DNA from: Candidatus Bathyarchaeia archaeon
Lineage (GTDB): Archaea > Thermoproteota > Bathyarchaeia > Bathyarchaeales > Bathycorpusculaceae
Reading direction: 5' to 3'
Assembly (NCBI GenBank): GCA_050010515.1
Contig: JBEKKX010000029.1
Location: forward strand, 1 to 30,875
Length of the DNA: 30,875 bases
The first letter of the stretch is position 1. Every line of letters starts with the position of its first letter. The position numbers and the translations under genes are program-made. Shown one piece after another: positions 1-28,408 of the stretch. The notes beneath the pieces were generated by a model. It had not been told where the DNA came from. It was given only the letters and a program-made list of their open reading frames with translations, and searched no databases.

Positions 1-1
1 C

Positions 2-34
2 TCCTAGACGGTAGACGCAACCTGCCGTCTAGGA
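2..34. repeat. 13-bp stem-loop (inverted repeat)
   Basis: TCCTAGACGGTAG-acgcaac-CTGCCGTCTAGGA; 12 Watson-Crick pairs + 1 G-U. Confidence 0.8.
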
Positions 35-175
35 AACACACTTAGCGAGTTAGCAAAAGAACCTACTGCCGATTCATCTGCAACCTAACGGTTGCAGTAT
101 TCTCGTCAAGTTTTAATAAAAAAAGAAAATTTATTGGCAGCCTATGAAAAGATTGATTGCTTAGAGTCACGTGTT

Positions 176-7329: not shown

Positions 7330-7590
7330 ATGCACAAGAGAAACGTTGAGAAATTGCAATCTGTAAAGATACAGAAAATTATACTTCACAGTAGCTTCCA
7401 CGATAAGAAATTAGCTGAAGTGATTTCTAGAATGACACGTTTAGAGGTGATGGAGCAGTTGAAAGAGCCTATTGAGGTTCATCTTGTGCCAGATGTGGAG
7501 AAGGGCGAAGTGTTACTTGATTTGCGTGGAAGGGGCAGTTTGCAACGGGAAAATGATTCTGCTCAAAATAGCAGGTTTAGGCTGTATTGA
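7330..7590 (+). CDS. hypothetical protein (first gene of the operon)
   Basis: 86-aa ORF overlapping the next gene (TTGA); start uncertain. Confidence 0.6.
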   Translation: MHKRNVEKLQSVKIQKIILHSSFHDKKLAEVISRMTRLEVMEQLKEPIEVHLVPDVEKGEVLLDLRGRGSLQRENDSAQNSRFRLY

Positions 7591-8081
7591 GTAATCGCAG
7601 ATTAAACAAAAAATTTAAGAGGATTATAACTATGAGGCGTAATCCAAGTTCCATTGTTCTAGTTGAAAGGCGTATTTTTGATCTTCGACAAACAGCTAGA
7701 CAAACGCTTAAGACTAATGTAGATACGCAGCTTCTTAGAAATACGTGGATTGAGAAACTTGATGATTTGTTTTCTATCGCTACTTCGATGGCGAAGGGTG
7801 ACGGCAAACCACAGCAAGTTGGCGATAAGCCAGAGATTATAGCTCCTAAGGAGCGGCAGCTGTGGGCTCATGTAGCTGCTCATACTGCGGAGGTTATGGG
7901 TAACTTGGCAAGGGGGTTTGATGAGCGGCAGTTTAATGAGGATTTAGCTGAATTGGAACGGTTGGTAGATGAGATCAAAAAGCTTCAAGCTCAAAGAGCT
8001 GAGAAAGGAGATCGACCAGCAGAAAGGAAACCTGCCGATAAATGCAGTGAAACAGGCATCGAAAGCGTTAGTGATCCCTGA
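7587..8081 (+). CDS. putative terminase small subunit
   Basis: helical/coiled-coil protein immediately upstream of, and overlapping, TerL; positional call only. Confidence 0.5.
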   Translation: MSNRRLNKKFKRIITMRRNPSSIVLVERRIFDLRQTARQTLKTNVDTQLLRNTWIEKLDDLFSIATSMAKGDGKPQQVGDKPEIIAPKERQLWAHVAAHTAEVMGNLARGFDERQFNEDLAELERLVDEIKKLQAQRAEKGDRPAERKPADKCSETGIESVSDP

Positions 8082-9378
8082 TGACCCTGTTGTTTTTGCG
8101 CGGGATTTCTTTGGTTTTGATGCAAAGGAGTATCAGGCTGGGCTTCTTCGGGACAAGAGTAAGCGGATTGTGGTTCGCTGGAGCCGGCAAGCTGGAAAAA
8201 CCACGTGCATTGCGTTGAGGGCAATCTGGTTTGCTTGCATGCACCCGAAGACCTTGACCTTGATTGTGGCTCCTACTCTGCGCCAGAGCATGATCATGGC
8301 GGATCGCATCCAAGACTTTCTTGCAGGCTTGCCGAAAGATAAGAGATCAGCGCTTGTTGAGAAGTTTCAGCGCACAACCGTTGGCTTTTGTAATGGCAGC
8401 CGTATAGTTGCTTTGCCTAATAGTCCGCAGTTGCTTCGTGGCTATACGGCAGCTCAGGTTATCACTGATGAATCAGGATTCTTCAAGGATGATAAGCTCG
8501 TTTTTTATAACGTGCTTTATCCTATGCTGTCAACAACAGATGGTACATTAATCGCAAGCAGCACGCCTTGGAGTAAAGATAGCGTTTTCTTCCGTATGTG
8601 CCAAGCGCCAGAATTCAGTAAGCATTTTATAACATGTGAGGATGTTGTCCGGAGTGGTTTGGTTAAGCAGAGTTTTATTGATGAGATGCGAAGTCAGTTA
8701 CCGTTTGAGCGTTTTCAGCGAGAGTTCATGTCTGAATTCGTAGAAGAGATTGATGCATGGCTAACGCAGAGCCTTATCGTCAGTTGCATCGACAGTCAAC
8801 TAGTGTCTTACGATTTTCAAGCCCAGCTGAAAGGTGATTTTTATGTGGGCGTTGATTTTGGCAAGGAACAAGATTTCAGCGTTGTGCTAGTGGTTGAGAA
8901 GCAAGGATCCGTACTGCGAGTAGTACATTTTCACCGTTTTCCGTTACACACGGAGTATGCTAGCGTCATAGGTTATATCAAGAGTTTACAGGATCGCTGG
9001 AAAATAATCCGAGCAGTATATTCTGACATCACAGGAGTTGGAAACTATATTGTTGAGGATATGGTTCGTAGTGGGATCCAAGGCGTAACTGGAGTAAACT
9101 TCACAGTTAAGTCTAAAGAGGAGATGGCGACGATTCTGAGGGAAAAGATGCGCAGTGGCGAAGTAAAAATCCCCTATGTCCCGACAAGAAAGCTGGACGA
9201 TATTGATCTAACGGCTGAATTGAACATTGAAAAGTTTGAGCTCATGAAGACTGGGCACTTGCGCTTTAGTCATCCTGAAGGTGGCCATGATGACGTGTTT
9301 TGGAGTATTGCACTCGGTGTTTATAGTGCTGTCCAGTCTCCGTTGCCTGGTAGGGGCGCGGTTTTGCTTCCGCATTAA
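7969..9378 (+). CDS. terL: terminase large subunit
   Basis: Walker A SRQAGKT, Walker B ITDES, coupling motif SSTP, RNase H-like GVDFG...D...HDD. Confidence 0.97.
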   Translation: MRSKSFKLKELRKEIDQQKGNLPINAVKQASKALVIPDDPVVFARDFFGFDAKEYQAGLLRDKSKRIVVRWSRQAGKTTCIALRAIWFACMHPKTLTLIVAPTLRQSMIMADRIQDFLAGLPKDKRSALVEKFQRTTVGFCNGSRIVALPNSPQLLRGYTAAQVITDESGFFKDDKLVFYNVLYPMLSTTDGTLIASSTPWSKDSVFFRMCQAPEFSKHFITCEDVVRSGLVKQSFIDEMRSQLPFERFQREFMSEFVEEIDAWLTQSLIVSCIDSQLVSYDFQAQLKGDFYVGVDFGKEQDFSVVLVVEKQGSVLRVVHFHRFPLHTEYASVIGYIKSLQDRWKIIRAVYSDITGVGNYIVEDMVRSGIQGVTGVNFTVKSKEEMATILREKMRSGEVKIPYVPTRKLDDIDLTAELNIEKFELMKTGHLRFSHPEGGHDDVFWSIALGVYSAVQSPLPGRGAVLLPH

Positions 9379-9400: not shown

Positions 9401-9574
9401 ATGAAATTGTTAGAAAATCAATGTAAGAAATGGAATGATCGATTGGCTGCTTTGCCTGAGTGGATGCAGGAGATTTTCCTTGAGGACCTATCCGATACTA
9501 TTGAGAATAGATTTGTGGTCTTTGAGGCTCTAGCCAAAAAAAACGCCGGTAAAACAGAGGCTGACAATAAGTAA
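9401..9574 (+). CDS. 57-aa hypothetical protein MKLLENQCKKWNDRLAALPEWMQEIFLEDL...
   Basis: GGAGG RBS; stop overlaps the portal start (TAATG); not in the ORF track. Confidence 0.7.
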   Translation: MKLLENQCKKWNDRLAALPEWMQEIFLEDLSDTIENRFVVFEALAKKNAGKTEADNK

Positions 9575-11022
9575 TGAGTTCTGATGCGGAAAAAAAACAG
9601 GTAGATGTCGTTAATCAGCGAAGCCGCGAATTGGCTCAAAGATTCCGCGCTCAACGTAATGTGCCGCCGCAGGTTAGCAGGCAACAAATTCGTGAGGAGA
9701 TTCCAGTTACATGGGAAAAAGACGCTAATTTGCTGGGTTATATTAACAAGTATATGCTGAAAGGGTCTGGTGCAGGCTTTGTTGTTCCGCCTTACACGGC
9801 CTATTGGGAGCGCCTCTGGGGCGCTGTACCCATTGAGGATCTGCCGAAGTATAAGGATCTCTACAATTTTACTCCATACATTAAAGCAGCTATCGACTGC
9901 ACTATTAACTTGGGCATAAGTAACGGTTTTGAGTTGGAAGGCGGCGACGATGCCGTTCGCGAATGGCTTAGTAATTGGCTTGATGAACAGAACATTCTTG
10001 AGACATTGCGTGTGGTTGCGACGGATATGCTGGATTTCGGCAACGCTTTCTTGGAGATTTGTCGAGATGAAGCCACTGGCGATATCGCATGGCTTAAACC
10101 GCTAGATCCTGTACAAATGCGCGTTCGCCGCAACGAATACGGCGAAGTTTTCGGGTATATTCAACTATTAACGTTTCCCCCAGTAGTTTTTGAAGCTCAA
10201 GACATAATTCATTTTCGCTGGGGCGCTAAGTCCTGGTGGTACGAATTCAATTACGGCATAAGTTTGCTTAGGCCTCTGCTTAAGATTCAAGCGTTAATTA
10301 ACCAGTTTGAAGACGATATGTCAGTTGTCGTTCATACTTACGCAAAGCCGATGCTTGTGATTAAAGCAGGAACTCCTGAGAGACCTTTTAGTGATGCTCA
10401 ACTTCAAACGTTAATGGAGGTTTTTCGTGATCGTAAACCTGCGACGGATATGTTTGTGCGTGGAGACGTTGCAGTTGATGTCGTTCAAAGTATGACTAAA
10501 GACGTTAATCTGCAGTGGTGGCTCGACTACCTCTACAAGCAGCGGGAAGCTGTCCTTGGCGTTCCCAAGATTTTTCTCGGGGAAAGTGAGGGAACAAATC
10601 GTGCAACTGCTGAAACTGTCATGCAGGAGTTTGTTACCCGGTTGCGGATGATGCAGGAGATCCTCAGCGATATCCTGGAGACTGACTTGTTCAAGCAGCT
10701 GATCGAGCATCAATTCGGAGAAAGCGTTGAAGTGCCTGAGATTAAGTGGAAGCCGATTTGGGAGCCAACAGTTGAGGATAAAGCGAAGTTTCTTGTCGGG
10801 TTAGTTCAACAAGGCATAGTTACTCCTGTTGAAGCGCGTATGCAATTGGGTCTTCCGGTTAAGCCTGAAGATGGAACGTTGCCTAAGCAGCCTGCAGAGG
10901 TCCAGGAGCCGGGTAAAGGTGGCGGCGCTGCAGCTGGGCAGTTTGGTAGTCAAATGCTTGTCCGTAAGGATGGCCAGGAATATATTGTCTCAAAACTTAA
11001 GCCGAAACCAAGTGTTTCTTGA
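9574..11022 (+). CDS. portal protein
   Basis: DFGNAFLEI, LKPLDP..MRV, IIHFR, YGISLL, LGVPKIFLG...NRATA, TPVEARMQLGL; follows TerL. Confidence 0.95.
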   Translation: MSSDAEKKQVDVVNQRSRELAQRFRAQRNVPPQVSRQQIREEIPVTWEKDANLLGYINKYMLKGSGAGFVVPPYTAYWERLWGAVPIEDLPKYKDLYNFTPYIKAAIDCTINLGISNGFELEGGDDAVREWLSNWLDEQNILETLRVVATDMLDFGNAFLEICRDEATGDIAWLKPLDPVQMRVRRNEYGEVFGYIQLLTFPPVVFEAQDIIHFRWGAKSWWYEFNYGISLLRPLLKIQALINQFEDDMSVVVHTYAKPMLVIKAGTPERPFSDAQLQTLMEVFRDRKPATDMFVRGDVAVDVVQSMTKDVNLQWWLDYLYKQREAVLGVPKIFLGESEGTNRATAETVMQEFVTRLRMMQEILSDILETDLFKQLIEHQFGESVEVPEIKWKPIWEPTVEDKAKFLVGLVQQGIVTPVEARMQLGLPVKPEDGTLPKQPAEVQEPGKGGGAAAGQFGSQMLVRKDGQEYIVSKLKPKPSVS

Positions 11023-12036: not shown

Positions 12037-13311
12037 GTGCAGCTTCATTATTTTGTGCCTTTTAAGGCTCAGGAAGGCGTTTCTGAAGCTTTAGCGCTGA
12101 AGGAAAAGCTCATAAATATTGAGGGTATCGCTGTCGATACGAGCGTAAACGCAAATAAATGGCAGGTTTCTGAGAAAGATTTAGATGTGTTTACTCAGTC
12201 GCTGCTAGGCGTTCAGTTGCGTATGGATCATGCGGAAAGCGTGTTGATGGTTGTTGGTAAAGTCTCCGCGGCAAAACGCAACGGCACCCAAGTGTTTTTT
12301 ACTGCTGAAGTTGGCGATGAAAAATTAATCGAGAAAATCCTTCGTAAATATGTAGATCACGTAAGCGTCCAAGTTGATAGTGACGACGTGGAGTGCAGCA
12401 TGTGCAAAAAGCAGACGAGAAGTGAAGGCATGCTGATTCATCTTTGTCCTGGAGCTTGGGAAATCGTGCATAAACCTAAGGTCCGCGAATTAAGCGTTGT
12501 TGCAAGCCCGGCATATCAGAATACGGCTTTTAAGCCGGTAGGCTTCGGCGCCGCAATGGATCAGAATCAAAGTGAAGCCGAATTGCTTAACGCAAAAAAC
12601 GTTTTAACCTTAAAAATTTGGAAAGCCCAAAAAACAGCACAGTTAGGCCAGTTAGCAGATTCCATAATTTCACAGTCATTTGTTCACACGAGTGATGATG
12701 AGGGTTCTAAACGAAAGTTGCAAGAACCTGAAAAGCAAAAAATGAAAGCAAGCAAGGAAGTGAAGCATATGTCTGAACTTAATGCTCAGAATAATGCTTC
12801 TTCAGATAAAACACATCAAGCAGCTATAGTAAATACGGGCGGCGGAGAGAAACCAGGCAAAGATGAAAGCTACGAAGACATAATGAGTCAGCTTGAGAAA
12901 CTTAGTGAGGCAGTGAAGAGCTGCGGCGGCTCAGGAAATGAAATGGCTGATTTGAACAAGAAAGTTGATGATTTGACAGGTGAAGTAGCGAAGAGAGCTA
13001 CTAAACGTAGTTTAAGCATGAAAATCAGCGCTTTACAGAAGCAACTACAGCAAGATGGCGACGACGATGACGATGACGCGGAAGCTGAAGGCGCCGAAGC
13101 GGAAGGCGCCGAAGCGGAAGGCGCCAAAGGTAAAAAGGGTAAAAAGAGCGAAGCATGCAAAAGTGAGGGTTCAAAAGCTGAAGGCAAAGCGCATGGTAAA
13201 GGCATCGTTGCAACTGATGAGTTAAAAAAAGATGCAGCTGCATCCGCGCTTAACTGCGAATGGTTCAAAGACTTGCTTAAAGCCAACAACAAAATGAAAG
13301 GAATGCAATAA
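12037..13311 (+). CDS. prohead protease fused to scaffold
   Basis: MDH, HVSVQ and RELSVVASPAY protease motifs; coiled-coil, acidic/Lys-rich C-terminal half. Confidence 0.85.
   Translation: MQLHYFVPFKAQEGVSEALALKEKLINIEGIAVDTSVNANKWQVSEKDLDVFTQSLLGVQLRMDHAESVLMVVGKVSAAKRNGTQVFFTAEVGDEKLIEKILRKYVDHVSVQVDSDDVECSMCKKQTRSEGMLIHLCPGAWEIVHKPKVRELSVVASPAYQNTAFKPVGFGAAMDQNQSEAELLNAKNVLTLKIWKAQKTAQLGQLADSIISQSFVHTSDDEGSKRKLQEPEKQKMKASKEVKHMSELNAQNNASSDKTHQAAIVNTGGGEKPGKDESYEDIMSQLEKLSEAVKSCGGSGNEMADLNKKVDDLTGEVAKRATKRSLSMKISALQKQLQQDGDDDDDDAEAEGAEAEGAEAEGAKGKKGKKSEACKSEGSKAEGKAHGKGIVATDELKKDAAASALNCEWFKDLLKANNKMKGMQ
13081..13125 (+). repeat. 3 x 15-bp tandem repeat (EAEGA)
   Basis: GAAGC(T/G)GAAGGCGCC x3. 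Confidence 0.9.
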
Positions 13312-13811
13312 TGTCAGCAACAGGAGTTTTTGAAGGAACTACACCGCTTGTTTCAGATGAATACCTTGTTTCAGCTTTAGCAGGCTCAGCTATCACGATG
13401 GGGCAAGCTCTTGCCATTCAAACAACGTCAACCAGTTTTCCACCGACTGTTATACCGTGTGCAACAGCGAATGCGCCTAACTTTATGGGCTTCGCGCTGA
13501 CAAGCCAACCAACCACTGGCGGACCTATAACTGTCGTATGCAGAGGCGTATGCAGGGCAATATCGGACGGTTCAGCAGCGATAACGGCAGGCGACCAAAT
13601 AACGTGTTCAGCAACGGCAGGTCAGGTAAAAACTTTTGCTCCCACAACTGACGCAACCATAGGCGGAGACATAACAGCACCTTCAGGCGGAGGCGCTTGC
13701 ACAGCTTCAGGCGTAGCAGCAATCATAAACGCTACACGAACAATCATAGGCAAAGCATTGACGCCAGCAGTCGCAACAGCAGGCACAATCTTCTATATAC
13801 TTGTAAAATAA
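13311..13811 (+). CDS. capsid cement/decoration protein (DUF2190-like)
   Basis: Ala/Gly/Thr-rich, AITAGDQI and IIGKAL motifs, between scaffold and MCP. Confidence 0.7.
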   Translation: MSATGVFEGTTPLVSDEYLVSALAGSAITMGQALAIQTTSTSFPPTVIPCATANAPNFMGFALTSQPTTGGPITVVCRGVCRAISDGSAAITAGDQITCSATAGQVKTFAPTTDATIGGDITAPSGGGACTASGVAAIINATRTIIGKALTPAVATAGTIFYILVK

Positions 13812-13831: not shown

Positions 13832-14779
13832 ATGGCATTTGTTGAATCGGCACTAACGTGGGTTGACTCAGGCGCAGTTGCATATCCAGCGCTGCATCAG
13901 AAAATCATCGAATTAACCATGCCGGCACTCGTTGTCAAAAAGCTGTTTCCAGAGTTTCCGTTAGTTCAGGGCAGAACCGCAACGTTTGTGAAGCAAAGCG
14001 GCAGCAGAGCAGCAGCGATCAGTCAAATTTCGGAGGGCGCTGAAATCCCCATGGACTTTACGCCATACACGGAATATACTGTGACACCGTACAAGAAAGG
14101 CTTACGCGAACGCGTATCACGTGAAAACATTGAAGATCTCTATATACCGGTCATTGAGGATCAGCTTAGGCGTGTAGCTCGAAGAATGGCTTTCACCATA
14201 GATAATGATTGCATGACCGTGATAGATCTAGCTGCAGGTAATGCTCCAAGTAACACTTTCGCTGCGACAGGCTTAAGCTTGGGCTCAACAGGAGTACCGT
14301 TTGGTCCCTTTTATCAAACAGGCTCAAGCGGCCCAGTAGCGATCGGCAGCAAAGACCTCTTAGCAGCTAAAGCACTTTTGGAAACCTACAGCTTAATCGC
14401 GGATACAATATTGATTAACCCGGTAAACTTACGCGACGTCATGTATCTACCGCAATTCAGCCTGTGGGCTCAGTATGGCAATGAAGGCGGCCAAGGCGTA
14501 TCGCCAACGCAAACAGGCAAGGTCGGCACGATCTTCGGCATGAACGTTTACGTAAGCATGGTTGTTCCAGTAGGCAAAGCATACGTTATATCCACAGGCC
14601 AAAACTTAAGCGCGGCATATGCACCATTAGGATTCTTCGTTATCAAAAGACCTCTCATGACTGACGTTGAAATCAAGAAAGAATTCGATGCTGTTGATGT
14701 GTCGTTAACTACCAGATATTGCCCGGTAGTAACTTACGGAGAAGCAATCGTTAGAATAACAAACTTAAGCACAGCTTAA
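13832..14779 (+). CDS. major capsid protein, HK97 fold
   Basis: ISEGAEIP, K.G....VSRE.IED, ILINP, GTIFGMNVYVS; 315 aa; position. Confidence 0.95.
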   Translation: MAFVESALTWVDSGAVAYPALHQKIIELTMPALVVKKLFPEFPLVQGRTATFVKQSGSRAAAISQISEGAEIPMDFTPYTEYTVTPYKKGLRERVSRENIEDLYIPVIEDQLRRVARRMAFTIDNDCMTVIDLAAGNAPSNTFAATGLSLGSTGVPFGPFYQTGSSGPVAIGSKDLLAAKALLETYSLIADTILINPVNLRDVMYLPQFSLWAQYGNEGGQGVSPTQTGKVGTIFGMNVYVSMVVPVGKAYVISTGQNLSAAYAPLGFFVIKRPLMTDVEIKKEFDAVDVSLTTRYCPVVTYGEAIVRITNLSTA

Positions 14780-14813: not shown

Positions 14814-14882
14814 TTTTTTGTTTTTTGCCCAGTTGAAAAAGCTGGCCCTCTTTAGCTTTATGGCTGGGAGAAGCGGGCAAAA
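14814..14882 (+). terminator. oligo-T tract plus structured element after the MCP gene
   Basis: T-run 14814-14826; TTTTGCCC/GGGCAAAA closing stem with internal hairpins. Confidence 0.5.
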
Positions 14883-14895
14883 GGAAGCGAAAAAC

Positions 14896-15240: not shown

Positions 15241-15402
15241 TTGAGTCAAACAATAGTTGAGAATGCAGATTGGAAACTGATAAAAAACGCAGACGGCACG
15301 CTGCTACTGCAAGACATCGCATTGCAAGAAACAATCGGTATCACAAAAGCGAAGCTGCTTAGTCTTAAAGCTATAGTTGATGGAGCTGCCAGCAATGTCT
15401 AA
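15241..15402 (+). CDS. 53-aa hypothetical protein MSQTIVENADWKLIKNADGTLLLQDIAL...
   Basis: AAGGAG RBS, TTG start, overlaps the next ATG (15395); not in the ORF track. Confidence 0.65.
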   Translation: MSQTIVENADWKLIKNADGTLLLQDIALQETIGITKAKLLSLKAIVDGAASNV

Positions 15403-16049
15403 AAAAGCACATGACAAAGCAAGAAGCGTCGACCGCGTAGCAGCCAGAAATATGTCGACTGTACGTGACAGATGTACGCATAAGACGCGCTGGACAATTT
15501 TCAAGTTCAGTGACGAAGACGGCTTAATCGAAAAACTGCTAAAGAAAGGATTCACGCAAGAACACATTGCTAACTTGTTTCCGCATAGGCTACTTGGAAT
15601 TTCGCGGTTTATTGGGCATCCTAATGCTAAAGGAAACTTGTGCTTGAACACTGGAATTCAAGGATTCGAGAAGTTAATTGCTGGGTTAAGTTCGCCGCCT
15701 AATGCATGGAGTAATACGTACGCGTATTTAGGCGTTGGAGATTCAACAACAGCAGCGGCAGCGACACAGACAGACTTGCAGGCGTCAAGCAACTATACTT
15801 ACGTTGCTATGGCATCGGGCTATCCGTCGCAGTCTTCGCAGACACTTTCATGGCAGGCAAGCTTCAGTTCAGCAGTAGCTAACTACGCGTGGAACGAGTT
15901 TGTTGTTACAAACGCAAGCAGCAAGGGTAGCGGAGTAGTTTTAAACCGATTAGTTAGCTCGCAGGGAACCAAGACCTCAGGGCAGACATGGAAGAAGTTA
16001 CTTTCTCCACTGTATATGGGTCTTGACTGTAAGCATAACCTGGTCATAA
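15395..16049 (+). CDS. virion structural protein (tail-collar/fibre-base-like); proposed spliced CDS join(15395..15987,16016..16049), 208 aa
   Basis: YLGVGDSTTA...TDL...ASF....ANYAWNEF...LNR...GTKTSGQTW; unspliced frame ends KKLLSPLY... at 16060, spliced frame ends WVLTVSITWS*. Confidence 0.7.
15988..16015 (+). other. candidate 28-nt bulge-helix-bulge (BHB/BHL) mRNA intron
   Basis: central helix GCAG(15982-85)/CTGT(16010-13); 3-nt bulges ACA and ATA; inner stem TGGA/TCCA; outer stem CAAGACC/GGTCTTG. Confidence 0.7.
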
Positions 16050-16118
16050 ACTGCGCGTAAACCTTTCTTTATTTTCCCTTTTTTGAAGTTAAATAATAAA
16101 TAAATGGAGTAAAAAATC

Positions 16119-18623: not shown

Positions 18624-19403
18624 ATGAACACTGGCGATTTGTCGCCTAGCATTGTTGCTACCCTGCAGAATAGCGACGGCTCAATTTTTAATTTGACAGG
18701 TTGCACTGTGCTATTCCAGATGAGTCAGCAAGGACAAATACTGTTCAGTCATGCTGCAACAGTGACGAATGCAACGAGCGGTGTTGTGCAGTATAATTGG
18801 CAAGAGAGCGATACAGAAGACGTTTACGGCGTCTGCACCGGGCAATTTATCGTTACATTGCCAGGCGGTGCCACGCAGACTTTTCCAACAGTCGATGTCT
18901 TCTACATTATTTTTCCGCTTCAACCGGTAACTACACCGTCAACGCTGCCGCAATTCACCACATTAAGCGAAGTTATGGGGCACCTTAACGTCCAAGGACC
19001 TGACAGCACCGGGAACTATACTGTTTATGGGTTGCCTGTTTCTCAGCAAGGTATCCAGGCGCAGGTTGATCACGCGAACACGTACATAAACAGCCTATTG
19101 CCAAATGTGACATCGACGGATCCGCGTTATCCGTCTGCTCAGCTAGCAGCACTTGATATGGCATGCATGGACGTGTTAGTCGCTGCAAGCGGCGGCATGC
19201 TCCTGGGCGCAGCAGATTACAAGCTTGGCGACTTATTCGTAACAAAAGGCACAATTACAAAGTTTGCATATCAAACTGCTGTCCAAAACTTCAAAGACGA
19301 CTTCGTCCGAAACATAACGAATCTTTCAACTGTTGCAATAGGCGCCGTAGCACGTACAGCATTCTCAGTACCACGATACCAAGGAGGCTTGATTTCCCCT
19401 TGA
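18624..19403 (+). CDS. BppU-N-like Ig domain fused to a putative head-tail adaptor
   Basis: GDL.P...L...DG...NLTG.TV.F...GVVQY.W...DT...TFP; C-terminal half FTTLSEV..HL...ANTYINSLL...AALDMA. Confidence 0.65.
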   Translation: MNTGDLSPSIVATLQNSDGSIFNLTGCTVLFQMSQQGQILFSHAATVTNATSGVVQYNWQESDTEDVYGVCTGQFIVTLPGGATQTFPTVDVFYIIFPLQPVTTPSTLPQFTTLSEVMGHLNVQGPDSTGNYTVYGLPVSQQGIQAQVDHANTYINSLLPNVTSTDPRYPSAQLAALDMACMDVLVAASGGMLLGAADYKLGDLFVTKGTITKFAYQTAVQNFKDDFVRNITNLSTVAIGAVARTAFSVPRYQGGLISP

Positions 19404-19594
19404 GTGAATCAAATCATCCTAACGTAGTGATCGTTGAAAATGCCATTGTCGGATCATTTCGGATTCGGCGTAACCGCATAATCGCTAAAGTCAACAACGT
19501 AAACACAATCATGACTAGCGCCGAATTTGAGCGGCTCCGGCATGAAGGCTACGATTTAGAAGCAATCGGTAGCGAATGCGAAACAGGGGCGTAA
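19400..19594 (+). CDS. 64-aa hypothetical protein MSESNHPNVVIVEN...
   Basis: AAGGAGG RBS, TTGA overlap; 3' part of track ORF 19163..19594. Confidence 0.6.
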   Translation: MSESNHPNVVIVENAIVGSFRIRRNRIIAKVNNVNTIMTSAEFERLRHEGYDLEAIGSECETGA

Positions 19595-23634: not shown

Positions 23635-25020
23635 TTGAGTGGGGTTCCTGCAGAGATAGATATTGTTGCGACTGATGATGCGTCAGACGTTTTCCAATCA
23701 GTCAGCAGCAACTTTACTGATATGAGCAGCAGCGTCAGCGAAGCTTCTGAAGCTATGAGTAGTGATGTTTCAGATAGCATGCAGGAGACTGCGAGTTCTG
23801 TTTCAACTATGTCAACAACTGTAGAGGCTGACACTAGCCAGATGCAGGATTCCTTCAATCAAGCCGGAAGCACCGCTCAGGTGAGCATGGGTCAAATAAC
23901 AACTAGCACTGGAGCTGCAACCGATGCGACAGATGCTTCTAGCCAAAGCTTTAGTCAAAACGCTATGCAGATGAATAGTGCAGCTATGAGCGGTGCTATG
24001 CTGTATATGGCTGTGAACAATATTGAGAATGCTCAAGTTAGCCTTAGCCGAGCAAACTTGATGGAAGAAAAAGCCGCGAATTCCGTGACGTTAGCGCAGC
24101 AGGCCTATAATTTGGCTGTTGCAAAATACGGTGAAACCAGTCTTCAGGCGCAGGATGCGGCGAATAAGCTTAACCTGGCCATTCAGACTCAACAAGTAGA
24201 TCAGGAGCGTGTTGAAGAGGCAAGCCGTAACTATAACAGTACTTTAATGATGTCGGCGCTTACTGTTATTCCTGCGGTTATTAACGTTGTAAACTTGGCA
24301 TGTAACGCCACGAAAATGTGGGAAGGCGCTCAAGCAGCTCTTGATGTTGTAATGGATGCTAACCCCGTGATGCTTGTTGTATTAGCTGTCGCGGCTTTAG
24401 TTGTCGGTTTCATAGCTGCTTACGAATACTGCAAGCCTTTCCGCGACATCATAAATGACATTGGAAGCATCATGGGCGGCGCCGTATTAAGTGCCTTTAA
24501 CGCTTTAAAAACAGCAGGCGACGCACTGTGGAATGGCTTAAACGCTGCTTACACTGGAATTCTTCTGCCAGTAGCAAACTTTTTCAAAGAAATTTTTGTT
24601 GCAGACATAAACGCTGCCTTAGTACCTATCAAAGCTTTTGAGTCAGTTATTGGCGCCGTAGCAAACGCCGTTAAACCGCTCGAAGGTTTCATAGGCGATT
24701 TAGGTTCAGCATTGGGTAAATTGTGTTTTGCGCATGCATCGCCAGCTGCTGAAGAATTCAATAAGCAGATTACACAGAGCATAGCGCTTAGCGATCAGTT
24801 AACACATAAAACCGGCACGTTAGGATCCAGTCTCCAAGGGCTTTCAGGTAACGTTAACGTTAAAAGCGGAGCTGGAACAAGCAACGTCTCAATCGGCTCA
24901 CCTAACATTACGATCGGCAGCATAACCGGGACAGCTTCGCTAAAACAGACACGAGATGCCGTGAACAAAGGTATCTGCGATGCAATGTACAAAAAAGGCA
25001 TAATGAATAAGGTGACATAG
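23635..25020 (+). CDS. tape measure protein
   Basis: IDIVATDDAS N-terminus; Ala/Ser helical body; MDANPVMLVVLAVAALV...AY...FRDII motif. Confidence 0.9.
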   Translation: MSGVPAEIDIVATDDASDVFQSVSSNFTDMSSSVSEASEAMSSDVSDSMQETASSVSTMSTTVEADTSQMQDSFNQAGSTAQVSMGQITTSTGAATDATDASSQSFSQNAMQMNSAAMSGAMLYMAVNNIENAQVSLSRANLMEEKAANSVTLAQQAYNLAVAKYGETSLQAQDAANKLNLAIQTQQVDQERVEEASRNYNSTLMMSALTVIPAVINVVNLACNATKMWEGAQAALDVVMDANPVMLVVLAVAALVVGFIAAYEYCKPFRDIINDIGSIMGGAVLSAFNALKTAGDALWNGLNAAYTGILLPVANFFKEIFVADINAALVPIKAFESVIGAVANAVKPLEGFIGDLGSALGKLCFAHASPAAEEFNKQITQSIALSDQLTHKTGTLGSSLQGLSGNVNVKSGAGTSNVSIGSPNITIGSITGTASLKQTRDAVNKGICDAMYKKGIMNKVT

Positions 25021-25520: not shown

Positions 25521-28352
25521 GTGACCAGTTGGACAATACAATACTATAATGGTTCAGCATGGGTAACTAAAACTGACGCAGTAATCGATCAGATAATTGA
25601 TGAAGTCAATGGTCAATTAGGAACTGCTGGCCAACAAGAATTCGATTTCATCATACCGAATACGCCAGCGAACTTAACTTTTGTTGAAAGTGATCAGCAA
25701 GTTCAAATTCTCTGGGGCAGCACAAGCGTCTTTTCAGGATTACTACGAGCTTATAAAGCAAAATTCCTGAATATTTCATGTACAGTTTATAACAACGTTT
25801 TTGAATTGATGAAAAAGCAGAGTATAACAGGCAAATACAGTAATGTAGCTGCAAACACGGTCTTCGCGGCTATTTGTGCGGTCTGCGGCATGACCGCGGG
25901 ATCTTGCCCCTCAACAGTTATTAGCACGCAGTTCAACGCAACTGACTGTTATACGGCAGCGCTTAATGTCGCCAACATTTTAGGCCTCAACTTATTCAAT
26001 TCAGGCAGCACCATAAATATTGCAGTAAAAGGCAATCAAATTCCTACAGCCATAACAATTGACACGGAAAGTGAAGTAGACATAGATCGGAGTAAAGCAG
26101 GGTATGATGGGGTAATTATCCGCGGTGTTGATCAAGCTGGAAACGCAATCACGGGTTCTGCCGGGAACACTGGATCTGGCTATAGTGTTAAAACTTTAAC
26201 TAATAAAATTGCTATGAGCCAAGCAACGCTAAATAGCCTTGCAACAGAGTACTTGCAGAGTCTCCAGCAGACGAATAGCGGTTCTCCCCTGGTATGCGAT
26301 ATCGCTCAAGCGGCACTACTCAATAGTGGCGACTTAGTTACTGTAACAAACGGTGCAGCCTTCGGGCTTTCTGGAAACTATGAAACTTGTAAGATAACGA
26401 AAACTTTAGTGAAGGCAACTATTGAAATTGTGCATTCAGTTAGCGACTTCAGCAACTTAGTTGACGCCATGGCTTCTTCAACAACTGCACTAAGCACTTT
26501 GCCCGTTAGCAGCGATCAAACGCAAGGCGCAAGTGTCAGCATGCAGAGCCTCTTAGGCTTTTATCATCTTGGCGAAGGCAGCGGTACAGTAGCAATAGAT
26601 CAAAGCCCAAATGCAAATAACGGTGCGATAGGCTCAGGAAACACTTGGATACCTGGACCAGAGACAGAAGTTTTAATGTTTAACGGAAACGGCTCCTACG
26701 TTGACATATCAAACAATATAATTGATTTTAGCGGCTTATCTAAATTTTCATTTACTTGCTGGTTCTCGCCGACGTCGGCAGCTGCGCAATATTTGGTGTA
26801 TAAGGCTAATCAGTTTTACGTGGAAGTATTAGCTAACGGCAGCATCGTTTTCGGCTTATATATCGGCGGCGCCTGGGTAACGTTGACGGCGTCAGCAGGA
26901 TCCGCACCGCTAAATGGGCGTTTATTTGTTGCTTGCATTTATGACGGAACAAACATGTACATGTACCTTAATGGGCCTGTTCTGGTGCAGCAGGCTCAAA
27001 CAGGTGCAATCGGTAGCAGTACGAGTGACACGTATATAGGTGCACAAAGCGCTTCTGCAGGAGGCTTCACTGGAGTTGAGTCTGAAGTTATGTTTTTTGC
27101 GCGTGTCCTCGGTGCAGCAGAGGTGTATTCGCTTTACTTTTTTCCCCTTATTAGCTACGTAAATGTGCCTGCTACAGTTACCGTAAGTAACGGTGAATTA
27201 TTCTTAACTTATGCGACGAACATCAAAGCAAAATATGCGGTAAACCTGAACTATTTGCTGGATAACTGCATTTTAAATGACATAGTTATCGTTTCTTCAC
27301 CTACGGGAACAATGAACTGCTACGAAGCCGGCTACGCAATATTAGCAATGTTGCAGTATGGCGGTTCAGCATACTATACTCAAGTTCAAAACATTTTAGA
27401 CTTGTGGGTTTCGCTACAAAATTCTGACGGTAGTTGGTATCAACAGTATAATCCCTATTCGCCTTATGCTGTTGTTACTGAAACTTCAGAGGGCACAGAT
27501 GGAAACTTAAAGGTTGATTCCGGTGCAGCTCTGCTTGCCTGGGCGATGAGCAACTATGATCGATTAACAAGCGGAACGCGATACAAGGCAAATGTGCAGC
27601 TTGCGCTTGATTTTCTGCGTGCACTACAGTATGCTCATACTGTGGCTTACTCATCGAATCTTATCGCAAACGAAATCCTTGACGGAACCACTGATACGAC
27701 AGCTTTGCTTGCAGACTGCGGCGAATGCTTACTTTCAGCGAAATTCGCCATGGACGCTTACGGCAGCACTCTATTAACAACTTCAGGTTATAGCGTTCAA
27801 ACCTTCGCCAACAACCTGTACTATAGCATAGCCGTTACCGGATGGCGCGGTAGCGCTGCTCAATATTATGATACGTCTTATCCTTACGGGCAAAACACTA
27901 ATGTACCCTTCACATACGAAGAAAAAATCAGCTACACGCAAGCACTTTGCAGCTGGGCAGTCTACGTATTCGCAAAGAGCGCTTTCCAAACAGTAGGCGA
28001 TTATAGCAGTCAATGCGAAATCTGCCTAAGCTATATCAATACGTTAACTCGTGGTTCATGGGGCGGCGAATACTACTGTCCCTATACCGGTGCTACTGGC
28101 CAAACACAAAACGAATACTCCGGGTACGCGGCATTGATGGCTATAGCCTGCCAAACCGTAGGCAGCACCACATACACATCATTGATTACGGGATTAATCG
28201 CTTTTATCAAATGGTTAACGCTAAACGGCGGACAAGTATGCGACATGGTCGATGTAACTGGAAGAGTATGGCGAAGCCAAATAGGAACCACAGAAGACGG
28301 ATTCTTAGTTTTGCCTATTGCGTTAGCCTTGCTTGCAGGTGCGGGAACCTAA
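25521..28352 (+). CDS. tail tip/hub protein (Tal-like) with LamG domain and C-terminal (alpha/alpha) barrel, glycoside hydrolase-like
   Basis: N-terminal hub-like region; YHLGEGSGTVAIDQS...FNG...FSFTCW...YDGTNMYMYLNG LamG motif; LQNSDGSWY helical-barrel repeat. Confidence 0.75.
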   Translation: MTSWTIQYYNGSAWVTKTDAVIDQIIDEVNGQLGTAGQQEFDFIIPNTPANLTFVESDQQVQILWGSTSVFSGLLRAYKAKFLNISCTVYNNVFELMKKQSITGKYSNVAANTVFAAICAVCGMTAGSCPSTVISTQFNATDCYTAALNVANILGLNLFNSGSTINIAVKGNQIPTAITIDTESEVDIDRSKAGYDGVIIRGVDQAGNAITGSAGNTGSGYSVKTLTNKIAMSQATLNSLATEYLQSLQQTNSGSPLVCDIAQAALLNSGDLVTVTNGAAFGLSGNYETCKITKTLVKATIEIVHSVSDFSNLVDAMASSTTALSTLPVSSDQTQGASVSMQSLLGFYHLGEGSGTVAIDQSPNANNGAIGSGNTWIPGPETEVLMFNGNGSYVDISNNIIDFSGLSKFSFTCWFSPTSAAAQYLVYKANQFYVEVLANGSIVFGLYIGGAWVTLTASAGSAPLNGRLFVACIYDGTNMYMYLNGPVLVQQAQTGAIGSSTSDTYIGAQSASAGGFTGVESEVMFFARVLGAAEVYSLYFFPLISYVNVPATVTVSNGELFLTYATNIKAKYAVNLNYLLDNCILNDIVIVSSPTGTMNCYEAGYAILAMLQYGGSAYYTQVQNILDLWVSLQNSDGSWYQQYNPYSPYAVVTETSEGTDGNLKVDSGAALLAWAMSNYDRLTSGTRYKANVQLALDFLRALQYAHTVAYSSNLIANEILDGTTDTTALLADCGECLLSAKFAMDAYGSTLLTTSGYSVQTFANNLYYSIAVTGWRGSAAQYYDTSYPYGQNTNVPFTYEEKISYTQALCSWAVYVFAKSAFQTVGDYSSQCEICLSYINTLTRGSWGGEYYCPYTGATGQTQNEYSGYAALMAIACQTVGSTTYTSLITGLIAFIKWLTLNGGQVCDMVDVTGRVWRSQIGTTEDGFLVLPIALALLAGAGT

Positions 28353-28408
28353 ACGCCAGTTGTCACGAGTGCAATTTCATGGTAAACGATAGTGAAAGGT
28401 GAAAAGGT

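What the first reader, a model, noticed from the sequence alone, without database searches (positions are those of the whole stretch)
15970..16049. Candidate tRNA-type (bulge-helix-bulge) intron inside a viral structural gene
Seen: after ...GTKTSGQTW the frame runs into an unrelated-looking tail (KKLLSPLYMG...). Removing 28 nt gives ACA TGG GTC TTG ACT GTA AGC ATA ACC TGG TCA TAA = TWVLTVSITWS*, an alternating terminal beta-strand as I recall for this protein family. The RNA folds independently into a 4-bp central helix GCAG(15982-85)/CUGU(16010-13), with 3-nt bulges ACA(15986-88) and AUA(16014-16), an inner hairpin UGGA../..UCCA, and an outer stem CAAGACC/GGUCUUG offset by a small loop (relaxed BHB/BHL). 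Established: archaeal EndA cuts after the 2nd nucleotide of each bulge, RtcB ligates, and such introns occur in crenarchaeal cbf5 mRNA. Those cuts excise exactly 15988-16015, which restores the frame. Inference: virion assembly would depend on host tRNA-splicing machinery, acting as a regulatory switch or yielding two C-terminal isoforms. I know of no described example in an archaeal tailed-virus gene.
Basis: partly seen in the sequence, partly recalled or inferred. Interest (0 to 1): 0.92.

Follow-up and report, generated by a model that had tools for sequence, protein, structure and literature searches.

The report
tRNA-type intron in archaeal virus gene
A 28-base insert that breaks a conserved tail-protein gene of an archaeal virus has the shape that the host's tRNA-splicing enzyme cuts, and related viruses carry clearer inserts of the same kind inside their capsid gene, so these viruses probably rely on host tRNA-type splicing to make virion proteins.

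Summary
Window 15988-16015 is exactly 28 nt that are absent from 8 related alleles. All 119 other listed homologues end in the strand ...GQTW-VLT.S-ITWS, and the window still encodes that strand intact in the +1 frame. EndA cuts placed after the 2nd base of each bulge remove exactly those 28 nt. By chance this geometry appears in 122 to 829 of 300,000 random or shuffled inserts.

The main new result is that related Bathyarchaeia (pro)viruses carry 27-106 nt inserts at five sites in the major capsid gene. Nearly all fold into hBHBh' motifs whose predicted cuts restore the reading frame. The exon downstream of one such insert has dN/dS of 0.07-0.13.

The bin that holds the window encodes a crenarchaeal-type EndA with the broad-specificity loop, a second EndA paralogue, and RtcB.

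No RNA data were available, so splicing is inferred and not shown. The window's own motif is relaxed at the 3' site.

Verdict: probable BHB intron (about 0.8). I found no published description of this kind of intron in viral structural genes. Interest is high.

The parts
15395..15987 (+). Exon 1 of the tail-associated virion gene (phrog_23653 family). It runs from ATG 15395 to the AC of the split Thr codon and encodes residues 1-197 plus 2 bases.
   Evidence: The database protein P0003 starts at this ATG, and homologues start MSK.... phrog_23653 matches at E 1.4e-34, and the match stops at profile position 160 of 168. Coordinates were checked.
15988..16015 (+). Candidate BHB (tRNA-type) intron of 28 nt. 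Five equivalent registers exist (15988-16015 through 15992-16019) because of the ATGG repeat. The BHB rule picks the first.
   Evidence: Exactly 28 extra bases relative to 8 relatives.
16016..16049 (+). Exon 2. It starts with the A that completes Thr, then TGG GTC TTG ACT GTA AGC ATA ACC TGG TCA TAA, which reads (T)WVLTVSITWS*.
   Evidence: The residues are identical to the tail of P0012/P0014 and fit the family consensus.
15982..15985 (+). Central helix H, 5' strand (GCAG, exonic). It pairs with 16010-16013.
16010..16013 (+). Central helix H, 3' strand (CUGU, intronic).
15986..15988 (+). Bulge 1 (ACA). The predicted 5' cut is after 15987.
   Evidence: A 3-nt bulge in the minimum-energy fold. 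The cut rule was checked on the host tRNA-Arg(CCG) intron.
16014..16016 (+). Bulge 2 (AUA). The predicted 3' cut is after 16015. In the minimum-energy fold it is part of a 4x4 internal loop (15978-81 / 16014-17). Alternatively it is a 3-nt bulge closed by a single G15981-U16017 pair.
   Evidence: The outer helix adjacent to the bulge is only 1 bp.
15989..16009 (+). Inner helix h' and loop: UGGA/UCCA plus GAAG/CUUU with a bulged A, and loop UUAC.
15970..15977 (+). Displaced outer helix, 5' strand (CAAGACCU, codons T-K-T). It pairs with 16018-16025.
   Evidence: 8 of 8 pairs in the window against 3-8 of 8 in 8 intron-less relatives.
16018..16025 (+). Displaced outer helix, 3' strand (GGGUCUUG, codons W-V-L).
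16016..16060 (+). Unspliced read-through tail. The full tail (KKLLSPLYMGLDCKHNLVINCA*) starts at 15992. It is unrelated to any homologue.
13832..14779 (+). Major capsid gene, uninterrupted in the window. Relatives carry BHB inserts at positions equivalent to after 14044 (site B), 14082 (D), 14620 (E), 14642 (A) and 14728 (C).
   Evidence: Pfam Phage_capsid_4. Inserts are shown.

Best explanation
The window is the genome of a tailed virus of Bathyarchaeia. Window 15988-16015 is most likely a 28-nt archaeal tRNA-type (bulge-helix-bulge) intron in the mRNA of a conserved tail-associated virion protein.

The pre-mRNA folds so that exonic GCAG pairs with intronic CUGU. A canonical 3-nt bulge (ACA) and an inner hairpin sit on the 5' side. 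An A/U-rich loop (AUA) lies in front of a displaced 8-bp exon-exon helix on the 3' side. This is a relaxed HBh'/BHL form.

The host splicing endonuclease EndA would cut after the 2nd base of each bulge, and RtcB would join the exons. The product is ...GQTW-VLTVSITWS, which completes the last beta-strand of the fold.

What is shown:
- The insert, its exact boundaries and the fold geometry.
- The intact out-of-frame exon 2.
- The host enzymes.
- A population of clearer BHB inserts in the capsid gene of related viruses, whose downstream exon is under purifying selection.

What is inferred:
- That EndA actually cuts this relaxed motif.
- That RtcB actually joins the exons.
- That the spliced protein is the functional one.
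For: (1) Boundaries. The insert is exactly 28 nt relative to 8 relatives. The cuts dictated by the BHB rule fall in one of the 5 frame-restoring registers. At the 20 slid registers, a 4/4 central helix never co-occurs with an inner helix of 3 bp or more.

(2) Chance. The geometry arises in 122/300,000 random inserts, 189/300,000 shuffled inserts and 829/300,000 ATGG-kept shuffles.

(3) Conservation. 119 of 119 other listed homologues keep the terminal strand. The AlphaFold model of the intact homologue P0004 (pLDDT 87.5) has strand E197-207, and the insert falls after W199.

(4) The same kind of insert occurs in relatives, in the capsid gene.
- Site A: 27-29 nt in G001, G002, G003, G004 and L165, and 70 nt in L180. 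L180 has the same central and outer helices but an unrelated inner helix.
- Site B: 28 nt.
- Site C: 106 nt.
- Site E: 28 nt.
- Site D: 31 nt, relaxed.
- Across the ten instances, predicted cuts restore the capsid frame, for example F-V-I-K-R-P as in the intron-less window.

(5) Selection. The 44-codon exon downstream of site A has dN/dS 0.13 at dS 1.18 (G001 vs G004) and 0.07 (G004 vs L180). It is therefore translated in frame even though the upstream inserts carry stops or shift the frame.

(6) Host.
- G000 has EndA alpha (E 1.5e-44 to 2cv8, end-to-end match to 3p1z_B). Lys/Lys sit at the positions of K44/R46 of the Crenarchaea-specific loop. That loop confers cleavage of BHL substrates (PMC3241643, passages read).
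- It also has a second EndA paralogue and RtcB.
- The host tRNA-Arg(CCG) has a textbook 21-nt hBHBh' intron.
- The virus contig itself has no EndA or RtcB match.

(7) Host assignment. The closest homologues lie in 120-954 kb contigs of Bathyarchaeota MAGs. One of those MAGs has an EndA 93% identical to G000's.

(8) The insert is stable in DNA of 4 of 4 runs from 2017 to 2025.
Against: - No RNA evidence exists. No RNA run holds the locus, and no spliced-form protein is in the databases.
- The 3' splice site is not a clean bulge. The helix adjacent to it is a single G-U pair, and the minimum-energy fold gives a 4x4 internal loop. This is the least canonical of the eleven instances apart from site D.
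- Folding energy is barely better than shuffles (z -0.86 on 60 nt).
- All three intron-bearing DNA copies are identical, so there is no covariation for this site.
- The insert is lineage-specific and could be recent. Conservation of exon 2 therefore does not prove that it is still translated.
- The flanking ATGG repeat is not required by the BHB model. It is what a duplication or microhomology insertion would leave.
- The second EndA paralogue resembles the M. jannaschii alpha4 type, not a crenarchaeal beta subunit, so the enzyme's architecture is uncertain.
- cbf5, the classic archaeal intron-bearing mRNA, is uninterrupted in this host.
Confidence: 0.8

Rival explanations
1. The 28 nt are a plain insertion, from a slippage or microhomology event that left the ATGG repeat. 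It frameshifts the gene. The gene is then a pseudogene, or a tolerated variant with a 22-residue foreign tail, in a recently mutated or decaying (pro)virus. The BHB-like fold is a coincidence.
For: - The insert is flanked by the 4-nt repeat ATGG.
- It occurs in one lineage only, and all copies are identical.
- The 3' half of the motif is irregular.
- Fold stability is near that of shuffles.
- No spliced product is on record.
- Not every insert in these genomes is a BHB intron. One example is the roughly 500-nt element with a duplicated gene end in G003. Another is the intein in G002.
Against: - The geometry at a frame-restoring register is expected in only 0.04-0.28% of random or shuffled inserts.
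- The same virus group demonstrably keeps BHB-shaped inserts in an essential gene under purifying selection.
- Every other window ORF of 80 or more codons that found a match in four relatives matched as unbroken stretches, so the genome does not look decayed.
- The interrupted strand is kept in 119 of 119 other homologues.
- The allele persisted unchanged from 2017 to 2025.
Confidence: 0.14
2. Translational bypassing. The ribosome takes off at UGG 15989-91 and lands at UGG 16017-19, skipping 28 nt as in phage T4 gene 60. This would give the same protein without any RNA cleavage.
For: - Take-off and landing codons match (UGG/UGG, within the ATGG repeat).
- A hairpin begins at the take-off codon.
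- The product would be identical to the spliced one.
Against: - There is no stop or evidently slow codon after the take-off codon. The next codons are AAG AAG, and a tRNA-Lys(CUU) gene is present.
- To my knowledge (recalled), bypassing has not been reported in archaea.
- By eye, the capsid-gene inserts at sites A and B have no matched codons at their borders yet obey the BHB rule. One mechanism explains all sites only under the intron model.
Confidence: 0.02
3. Assembly or sequencing artefact, or a chimeric contig.
For: The window is a metagenome-assembled contig.
Against: - Contigs of 4 of 4 runs from four studies span the site with 0 differences.
- Two IMG/VR contigs and two JGI contigs carry the same 28 nt.
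- The protein with the aberrant tail is on record on 19 contigs from several sources.
Confidence: 0.01

Closest known systems
BHB introns in crenarchaeal cbf5 pre-mRNA (Aeropyrum, Sulfolobus; Watanabe 2002, Yokobori 2009, PMC2738675, passages read)
   Same: A short intron of tens of nucleotides in a protein-coding mRNA. It often has a relaxed cleavage motif. It is cut by a hetero-oligomeric crenarchaeal-type EndA. Intron-less alleles exist in relatives, with lineage-specific gain and loss.
   Different: That case is a cellular housekeeping gene with a single known site, and splicing was shown experimentally. Here the genes are viral structural genes, there are at least six sites in two genes and up to three in one capsid gene, splicing is not shown, and cbf5 of this host is uninterrupted.
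Archaeal tRNA introns at canonical and non-canonical positions (hBHBh' and relaxed HBh'/BHL motifs)
   Same: The geometry matches: a 4-bp helix, 3-nt A/U-rich bulges, and cuts after the 2nd bulge base. The host's own tRNA-Arg(CCG) 21-nt intron shows this geometry. Sizes of 21-92 nt in host tRNAs overlap the 27-106 nt seen here.
   Different: There is no tRNA body to help recognition. The exons are constrained by coding. No sequence similarity was found to any host sequence.
Putative 12-bp 'introns' in protein genes of the rudivirus SIRV1 (Peng et al., as cited in PMC2738675; the original paper was not read)
   Same: Short inserts that appear in genes of an archaeal virus and were proposed to be introns.
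   Different: According to the citing paper, splicing was not shown, the inserts keep the frame and may simply be translated. A BHB geometry is not claimed there. The inserts here break the frame or carry stops, and they fit the BHB rule.
Unconventional HAC1/XBP1 mRNA splicing in eukaryotes (recalled; mentioned in PMC4090602)
   Same: Protein-only endonuclease plus tRNA-ligase splicing of a short mRNA intron that changes the C-terminal reading frame.
   Different: The endonuclease is Ire1, not EndA/TSEN. The recognition element is a pair of stem-loops, not a BHB. It serves a regulated stress response.
Self-splicing group I introns and inteins in phage and archaeal-virus genes
   Same: Selfish intervening elements tolerated in essential viral genes. 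An intein with a LAGLIDADG domain sits in a relative's ATPase gene.
   Different: Those elements are autocatalytic and large. The inserts here are 27-106 nt with no catalytic potential, and they depend on host enzymes.
Phage T4 gene 60 translational bypass (recalled)
   Same: A short non-coding gap within an ORF, flanked by matched codons, with a hairpin at the take-off site.
   Different: There is no stop after the take-off codon. The host is archaeal. The sibling inserts at capsid sites A and B lack matched codons (by eye).

Membership tests
Archaeal BHB (tRNA-type) intron | A central 4-bp helix, with the 5' strand in exon 1 and the 3' strand at the intron's 3' end | tested here: met
   GCAG 15982-85 pairs with CUGU 16010-13: 4 of 4 pairs including one G-U.
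Archaeal BHB (tRNA-type) intron | Two 3-nt bulges on opposite strands, each flanked by helices (strict hBHBh') | tested here: inconclusive
   The 5' bulge ACA is canonical, lying between H and a 4+4-bp inner helix. The 3' bulge AUA is closed on its outer side by only one G-U pair, and the minimum-energy fold shows a 4x4 internal loop before an 8-bp helix. The site fits the relaxed HBh'/BHL class and not the strict class.
Archaeal BHB (tRNA-type) intron | Cuts after the 2nd base of each bulge yield exons that join into a functional product | tested here: met
   The predicted excision 15988-16015 equals the homology-defined 28-nt insert and restores ...GQTWVLTVSITWS*. The rule was calibrated on host tRNA-Arg.
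Archaeal BHB (tRNA-type) intron | The host encodes EndA able to cut relaxed motifs, plus an RtcB ligase | tested here: met
   Two EndA paralogues are present. The alpha-type has the Crenarchaea-specific loop, with K/K at the K44/R46 positions. RtcB matches at E 9.8e-177. Activity on this substrate was not tested.
Archaeal BHB (tRNA-type) intron | Intron-less alleles exist in relatives | tested here: met
   45 of the 47 loci where the motif regex matched are uninterrupted; the other 2 are copies of the window. 9 further metagenome loci are uninterrupted.
Archaeal BHB (tRNA-type) intron | Removal at the RNA level (spliced junction, free or circular intron) | not testable with these tools
   No RNA holder was listed. 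All four runs laid were DNA contigs.
Archaeal BHB (tRNA-type) intron | The structure is kept through sequence change (covariation) | tested here: inconclusive
   For this site, the three DNA copies are identical. For capsid site A, the inner helix is wholly replaced in L180 while H, the bulge sizes and the outer helix are kept. H and the outer helix themselves never vary.
Programmed translational bypass (T4 gene 60 type) | Matched take-off and landing codons | tested here: met
   UGG 15989-91 and UGG 16017-19.
Programmed translational bypass (T4 gene 60 type) | A stop or hungry codon directly after the take-off codon | tested here: not met
   The next codon is AAG. tRNA-Lys(CUU) is present in the bin.
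Inactivated gene (pseudogene) | Further lesions, or relaxed constraint, in the gene or its genome | tested here: not met
   Exon 1 is full length and 90% identical to P0004. Exon 2 is intact. Other window ORFs that found a match in relatives matched as unbroken stretches. A very recent lesion cannot be excluded.

The most novel reading that the evidence does not exclude
Tailed viruses of Bathyarchaeia harbour a whole population of host-dependent BHB (tRNA-type) introns in their late structural genes. At least six insertion sites were seen in two genes, with up to three in a single capsid gene. The introns are gained and lost between close relatives.

Capsid and tail formation would then require the host's EndA and RtcB. 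The substrate range of the host splicing endonuclease would become a determinant of which hosts can support the virus. The introns could also act as timing or anti-defence devices, for example by breaking up conserved targets at the DNA level.

The window's 28-nt insert would be the youngest and most relaxed member of that population.
Probability: 0.6. Interest if true: 0.92.

Novelty: new variant of a known kind. Interest (0 to 1): 0.88.

Why it matters
Protein-only, tRNA-type splicing of mRNA in archaea has been confirmed for a single cellular gene, cbf5. The authors of that work stressed that other cases were predicted but unverified (PMC2738675).

If these inserts are spliced, several consequences follow.
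- Archaeal viruses would use the host tRNA-splicing machinery to express their capsid and tail proteins.
- Introns would be more common in archaeal protein genes than gene callers assume.
- Many 'frameshifted' or 'split' capsid genes in archaeal virus catalogues would be mis-annotated.
- Virus-host compatibility could depend on EndA specificity.

The finding also offers a natural set of non-tRNA BHB substrates, both strict and relaxed, for studying EndA recognition. It is directly testable with RT-PCR or metatranscriptomes from peat and wetland samples where the virus is present.

Tried and rejected
- RNA evidence. The look-up of sequencing runs listed no RNA holder. The four runs laid were DNA contigs. 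Nothing can be said about expression.
- Copies of the insert elsewhere. blastn-short of the insert with and without its flanks against the whole bin found only itself. The inserts at different sites share no significant similarity with each other or with the bin. I found no donor and no evidence of transposition.
- Motif-only scanning. A simple BHB scanner gave 68 hits on the + strand of G001 against 43-57 in shuffles. The motif alone is not diagnostic, so I dropped genome-wide motif scans and used homology-defined inserts instead. In my first scanner run a loop bound cut off the true tRNA sites; this was fixed. At Aragorn's predicted intron positions, only 1 of 7 tRNA controls (Arg-CCG) gave a strict motif. 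I did not resolve the other six.
- Spliced form in protein databases. None of the cluster members is the window's exon 1 joined to the conserved tail.
- cbf5 intron in the host. It is absent.
- Apparent split of the gene after the capsid gene in G001. This turned out to be a conserved non-coding stretch upstream of the real start.
- Split at the end of the BppU-like gene in G001 and G003. This is a different mobile insert that brings its own copy of the gene's 3' end, and it has no BHB.
- The 1.2-kb insert in G002's ATPase gene. It is an intein.
- The first blastn indel census printed nothing, probably because of a gap-cost setting blastn does not accept (I did not read the error). It was rerun with defaults. 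Most indels it listed are alignment noise in variable regions.
- Supplementary tables of the two Bathyarchaeia-virus papers (PMC10848311, PMC11705971) were not opened. They might list some of these contigs. Their main texts contain no occurrence of 'intron', 'splic' or 'frameshift'.
- A genome-wide search for BHB introns in host protein genes was not attempted. It would require handing joined sequences to other tools.
Full report
**What is in the window**

The window is the whole of contig C29 of an archaeal metagenome bin (G000: 2.38 Mb, 66 contigs, 98.5% complete). It is a tailed-virus genome.
- Large terminase at 7969-9378 and portal at 9574-11022.
- A protease/scaffold-like ORF, a cement/decoration protein at 13311-13811 and an HK97-type major capsid protein at 13832-14779.
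- Tail-region genes follow.

The gene in question starts at ATG 15395. It belongs to PHROG 23653 (function unknown, E 1.4e-34). An AlphaFold model of an intact homologue (P0004, mean pLDDT 87.5) is a beta-rich fold. Its only significant PDB neighbour is a chain of the tail of Haloferax tailed virus 1 (9h4p_BD, E 3.9e-4). I therefore call it a tail-associated virion protein.

**The observation**

- 19 of 19 aligned homologues end ...TKTSGQTW-VLT[LVI][SQT]-ITWS.
- Among the 120 best database proteins, the only one with a different tail is the window's own. Of the other 119, 108 matched my regex and 11 are printed variants of the same strand.
- The window still encodes WVLTVSITWS* intact, but in the +1 frame from 16017.
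- A DNA alignment with eight relatives shows exactly 28 extra bases in the window and in two identical IMG/VR contigs.
- In the model of the intact homologue, the last strand spans residues 197-207. The insert falls after W199, so the unspliced product loses most of a strand that the whole family keeps.

**Not an artefact**

Contigs from four runs (2017, 2018, 2020, 2025; peat and wetland) cross the site with no differences and no gaps. The protein with the aberrant tail is on record on 19 contigs from several sources. Two further JGI contigs carry it. I found no intron-less DNA copy of this same virus.

**Geometry and chance**

I first checked the BHB cut rule on the host's own tRNA-Arg(CCG) gene. 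It has a textbook 21-nt intron: outer helix, 4-bp helix CUCC/GGGG, bulges GG|A and UU|A, and inner helix.

Applying the same rule to the window gives the following.
- Helix GCAG/CUGU.
- Bulge AC|A, followed by a 4+4-bp inner hairpin.
- AU|A after the 3' strand of the helix.
- Excision of 15988-16015.

Because of the ATGG repeat, five registers would restore the frame, and the rule picks one of them. At twenty slid registers, a 4/4 helix never coincides with an inner helix of 3 bp or more.

With the exons fixed, the helix plus an inner helix of at least 4 bp at a frame-restoring register arises in 122 of 300,000 random 28-mers. It arises in 189 of 300,000 shuffles of the insert and in 829 of 300,000 shuffles that keep ATGG.

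The weak points should be stated plainly.
- The 3' site is not a clean bulge. The adjacent outer helix is a single G-U pair, and the minimum-energy fold makes a 4x4 internal loop before an 8-bp exon-exon helix.
- Folding energy is near that of shuffles (z -2.03 on 66 nt, -0.86 on 60 nt).
- The 8-bp outer helix is 8/8 paired in the window but already 3-8/8 in intron-less relatives. It is only weak evidence.

**Relatives carry the same kind of insert in the capsid gene**

This result changes the odds. To see whether other genes differ by short inserts, I compared the window's ORFs with two IMG/VR contigs and two proviruses in Bathyarchaeota MAG contigs. More relatives were added later.

The window's capsid gene is uninterrupted, but relatives carry inserts at five sites.

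| Site | Position relative to the window's capsid gene | Carriers and insert length | BHB features |
|---|---|---|---|
| A | after ...APLGFFV | G001, G003: 29 nt; L165: 28 nt; G002, G004: 27 nt (in frame but containing TAA or TGA); L180: 70 nt | helix UCGU/GCGA, 3-nt bulges, inner hairpin, outer helix UUUU/AAAA plus GGGC/GCCC |
| B | after ...EGAE | G002: 28 nt | GCUG/CAGC, AA\|A, AU\|A, inner GUGUU/AACAU, outer GGGA/UCCC |
| C | (see window equivalents below) | G002: 106 nt | CCUG/CAGG, UA\|A, AA\|G |
| E | (see window equivalents below) | L170: 28 nt | GCAU/GUGC, AU\|A, AG\|G, 7-8-bp inner helix, outer GGCG/CGCC |
| D | (see window equivalents below) | L171: 31 nt | relaxed: one A-G mismatch in the helix and a 2x2 loop |

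- At site A the predicted cuts give F-V-I-K-R-P, the residues of the intron-less window.
- In L180 the central and outer helices are the same as in the other site-A carriers, but the inner helix and loop are an unrelated sequence.
- G002's capsid gene therefore carries three inserts.
- The window equivalents of the five sites are after 14044 (B), 14082 (D), 14620 (E), 14642 (A) and 14728 (C).
- The minimum-energy folds of 8 of these 10 instances show the outer helix, the 4-bp helix and both 3-nt bulges. In G001 the folding program pairs the 3' side differently, and in site D the motif is relaxed.
- By eye, the inserts at sites A and B have no matched codons at their borders, so ribosomal bypassing does not explain them.

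The 44-codon exon downstream of site A is under strong purifying selection among carriers that have diverged to near synonymous saturation. G001 vs G004 gives dN/dS 0.13 at dS 1.18, and G004 vs L180 gives 0.07. An essential gene interrupted by stop-bearing or frame-shifting inserts thus continues to be selected as one reading frame. That requires removal of the inserts, and the only shared property of the inserts is the EndA recognition geometry.

**The host side**

- G000 encodes an EndA that aligns end to end with the catalytic subunits of Sulfolobus tokodaii, Aeropyrum pernix and Pyrobaculum aerophilum (E 1.5e-44 to 1.1e-29).
- That EndA includes the Crenarchaea-specific loop, with Lys/Lys at the positions of K44/R46. 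The loop and K44 confer cleavage of non-canonical and BHL substrates (PMC3241643, abstract and passages read).
- A second paralogue resembles the M. jannaschii homotetramer type. The subunit architecture is therefore uncertain.
- RtcB is present.
- Aragorn lists ten host tRNA genes with introns, several of them doubtful calls; the plausible ones are 21-92 nt.
- The virus contig encodes neither EndA nor RtcB.
- The closest homologues of the gene lie in contigs of 120-954 kb labelled Candidatus Bathyarchaeota. One of those MAGs has, on the same contig as its provirus, an EndA 93% identical to G000's.

**Rivals**

- Plain frameshifting insertion. This remains possible for this particular site. 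The ATGG repeat, the single lineage and the irregular 3' half all fit it. It needs a coincidence of roughly 1 in 400 to 1 in 2,500, in a virus group that demonstrably maintains BHB inserts. I give it about 0.14.
- Bypassing from UGG to UGG. It would give the same protein, but there is no stop or slow codon after the take-off site, and it has no precedent in archaea (recalled). I give it about 0.02.
- Artefact. This is effectively excluded.

**Comparison with what is known**

The closest precedent is the cbf5 pre-mRNA intron of Crenarchaeota. It is a cellular gene with one site, and splicing was shown experimentally. Those authors note that no other archaeal mRNA intron had been confirmed. They mention putative 12-bp 'introns' in a rudivirus whose splicing was not shown (PMC2738675, passages read).

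My literature searches found nothing on BHB introns in viral structural genes. The term sets were:
- 'bulge-helix-bulge' + 'archaeal virus' + 'intron' + 'protein-coding';
- 'bulge-helix-bulge' + 'capsid';
- 'archaeal pre-mRNA splicing', 'splicing endonuclease', 'mRNA intron' and 'Bathyarchae';
- 'splicing endonuclease' + 'major capsid protein' + 'archaea', which returned 0 papers;
- 'BHB', 'intron', 'virus', 'archaeal' and 'mRNA splicing' from 2015 onward.

The main texts of two Bathyarchaeia-virus papers contain no 'intron', 'splic' or 'frameshift'. Their supplements were not seen. The library lacks most subscription journals, so absence from it is not proof.

**Verdict**

The most likely explanation (about 0.8) is a relaxed BHB intron spliced by host EndA and RtcB. 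It is one member of a previously undescribed population of such introns in structural genes of Bathyarchaeia tailed viruses. Splicing is inferred from comparative evidence, and no RNA data were available. In terms of novelty it is a new variant of a known kind. Interest is high.

Noticed in passing
Relatives: L156:6461-6489 (G001), L161:1853-1881 minus (G003), L163:1515-1541 minus (G004), L158:10368-10394 (G002), L165:3276-3303, L180:706-775. Window equivalent is after 14642.: Capsid-gene site A. Inserts of 27-29 nt, and 70 nt in L180, form a textbook hBHBh' motif. In L180 the inner helix is replaced by unrelated sequence while the cut geometry is kept. The window's capsid gene is the intron-less allele.
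   Followed up: yes
L158:9778-9805 (site B), L158:10481-10586 (site C), L170:3248-3275 (site E), L171:2753-2783 (site D): Four further BHB-shaped inserts in capsid genes of relatives. One relative (G002) has three in a single capsid gene. Site D is relaxed, with a mismatch in the central helix.
   Followed up: yes
L158/L159 (G002) about 26346-27536. Window equivalent is in 29149-30687.: A relative's ABC/AAA-type ATPase gene carries an in-frame insert of about 410 codons, with Intein_splicing and LAGLIDADG_3 domains. It is an intein with a homing endonuclease.
   Followed up: partly
Reverse complement of L160+L161 (G003) about 24069-24570, and G001 about 10945-10976. Window equivalent is near 19380-19403.: At the 3' end of the BppU-like gene, G003 has an insert of about 500 nt that brings its own copy of the last 7 codons and the stop. 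The original gene end is left behind as a remnant. G001 keeps a 32-nt remnant. It is a different kind of mobile insert, with no BHB.
   Followed up: partly
window 14826-14885: The stretch between the capsid gene and the next gene (TGCCCAGTTGAAAAAGCTGG...GGCTGGGAGAAGCGG) is conserved across five diverged genomes although it is non-coding. It contains a CCAG/CTGG hairpin. Its function is unknown; it could be a promoter, terminator or leader.
   Followed up: no
G000 C14:35205-35459 (L002:1471-2022 minus strand): The second EndA paralogue of the host is closest to the M. jannaschii homotetramer type and not to crenarchaeal beta subunits. The same pair of paralogues occurs in three Bathyarchaeota MAGs. 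The enzyme's subunit make-up in this class is open.
   Followed up: partly
window 18624-19403 / 19163-19594, 25521-28352 / 28013-28402, 7587-8081 / 7969-9378: Pairs of long ORFs on the + strand overlap by 100-340 nt in different frames, and relatives keep the same arrangement. I did not work out whether these are real overlaps, frameshift sites or spurious ORFs.
   Followed up: no
window 1-35: The contig starts with an inverted repeat (CTCCTAGACGGTAGACGCAACCTGCCGTCTAGGA). There is no terminal direct repeat. Independent assemblies give nearly the same length (30,875, 30,877 and 30,887 bases), which suggests defined genome ends.
   Followed up: no
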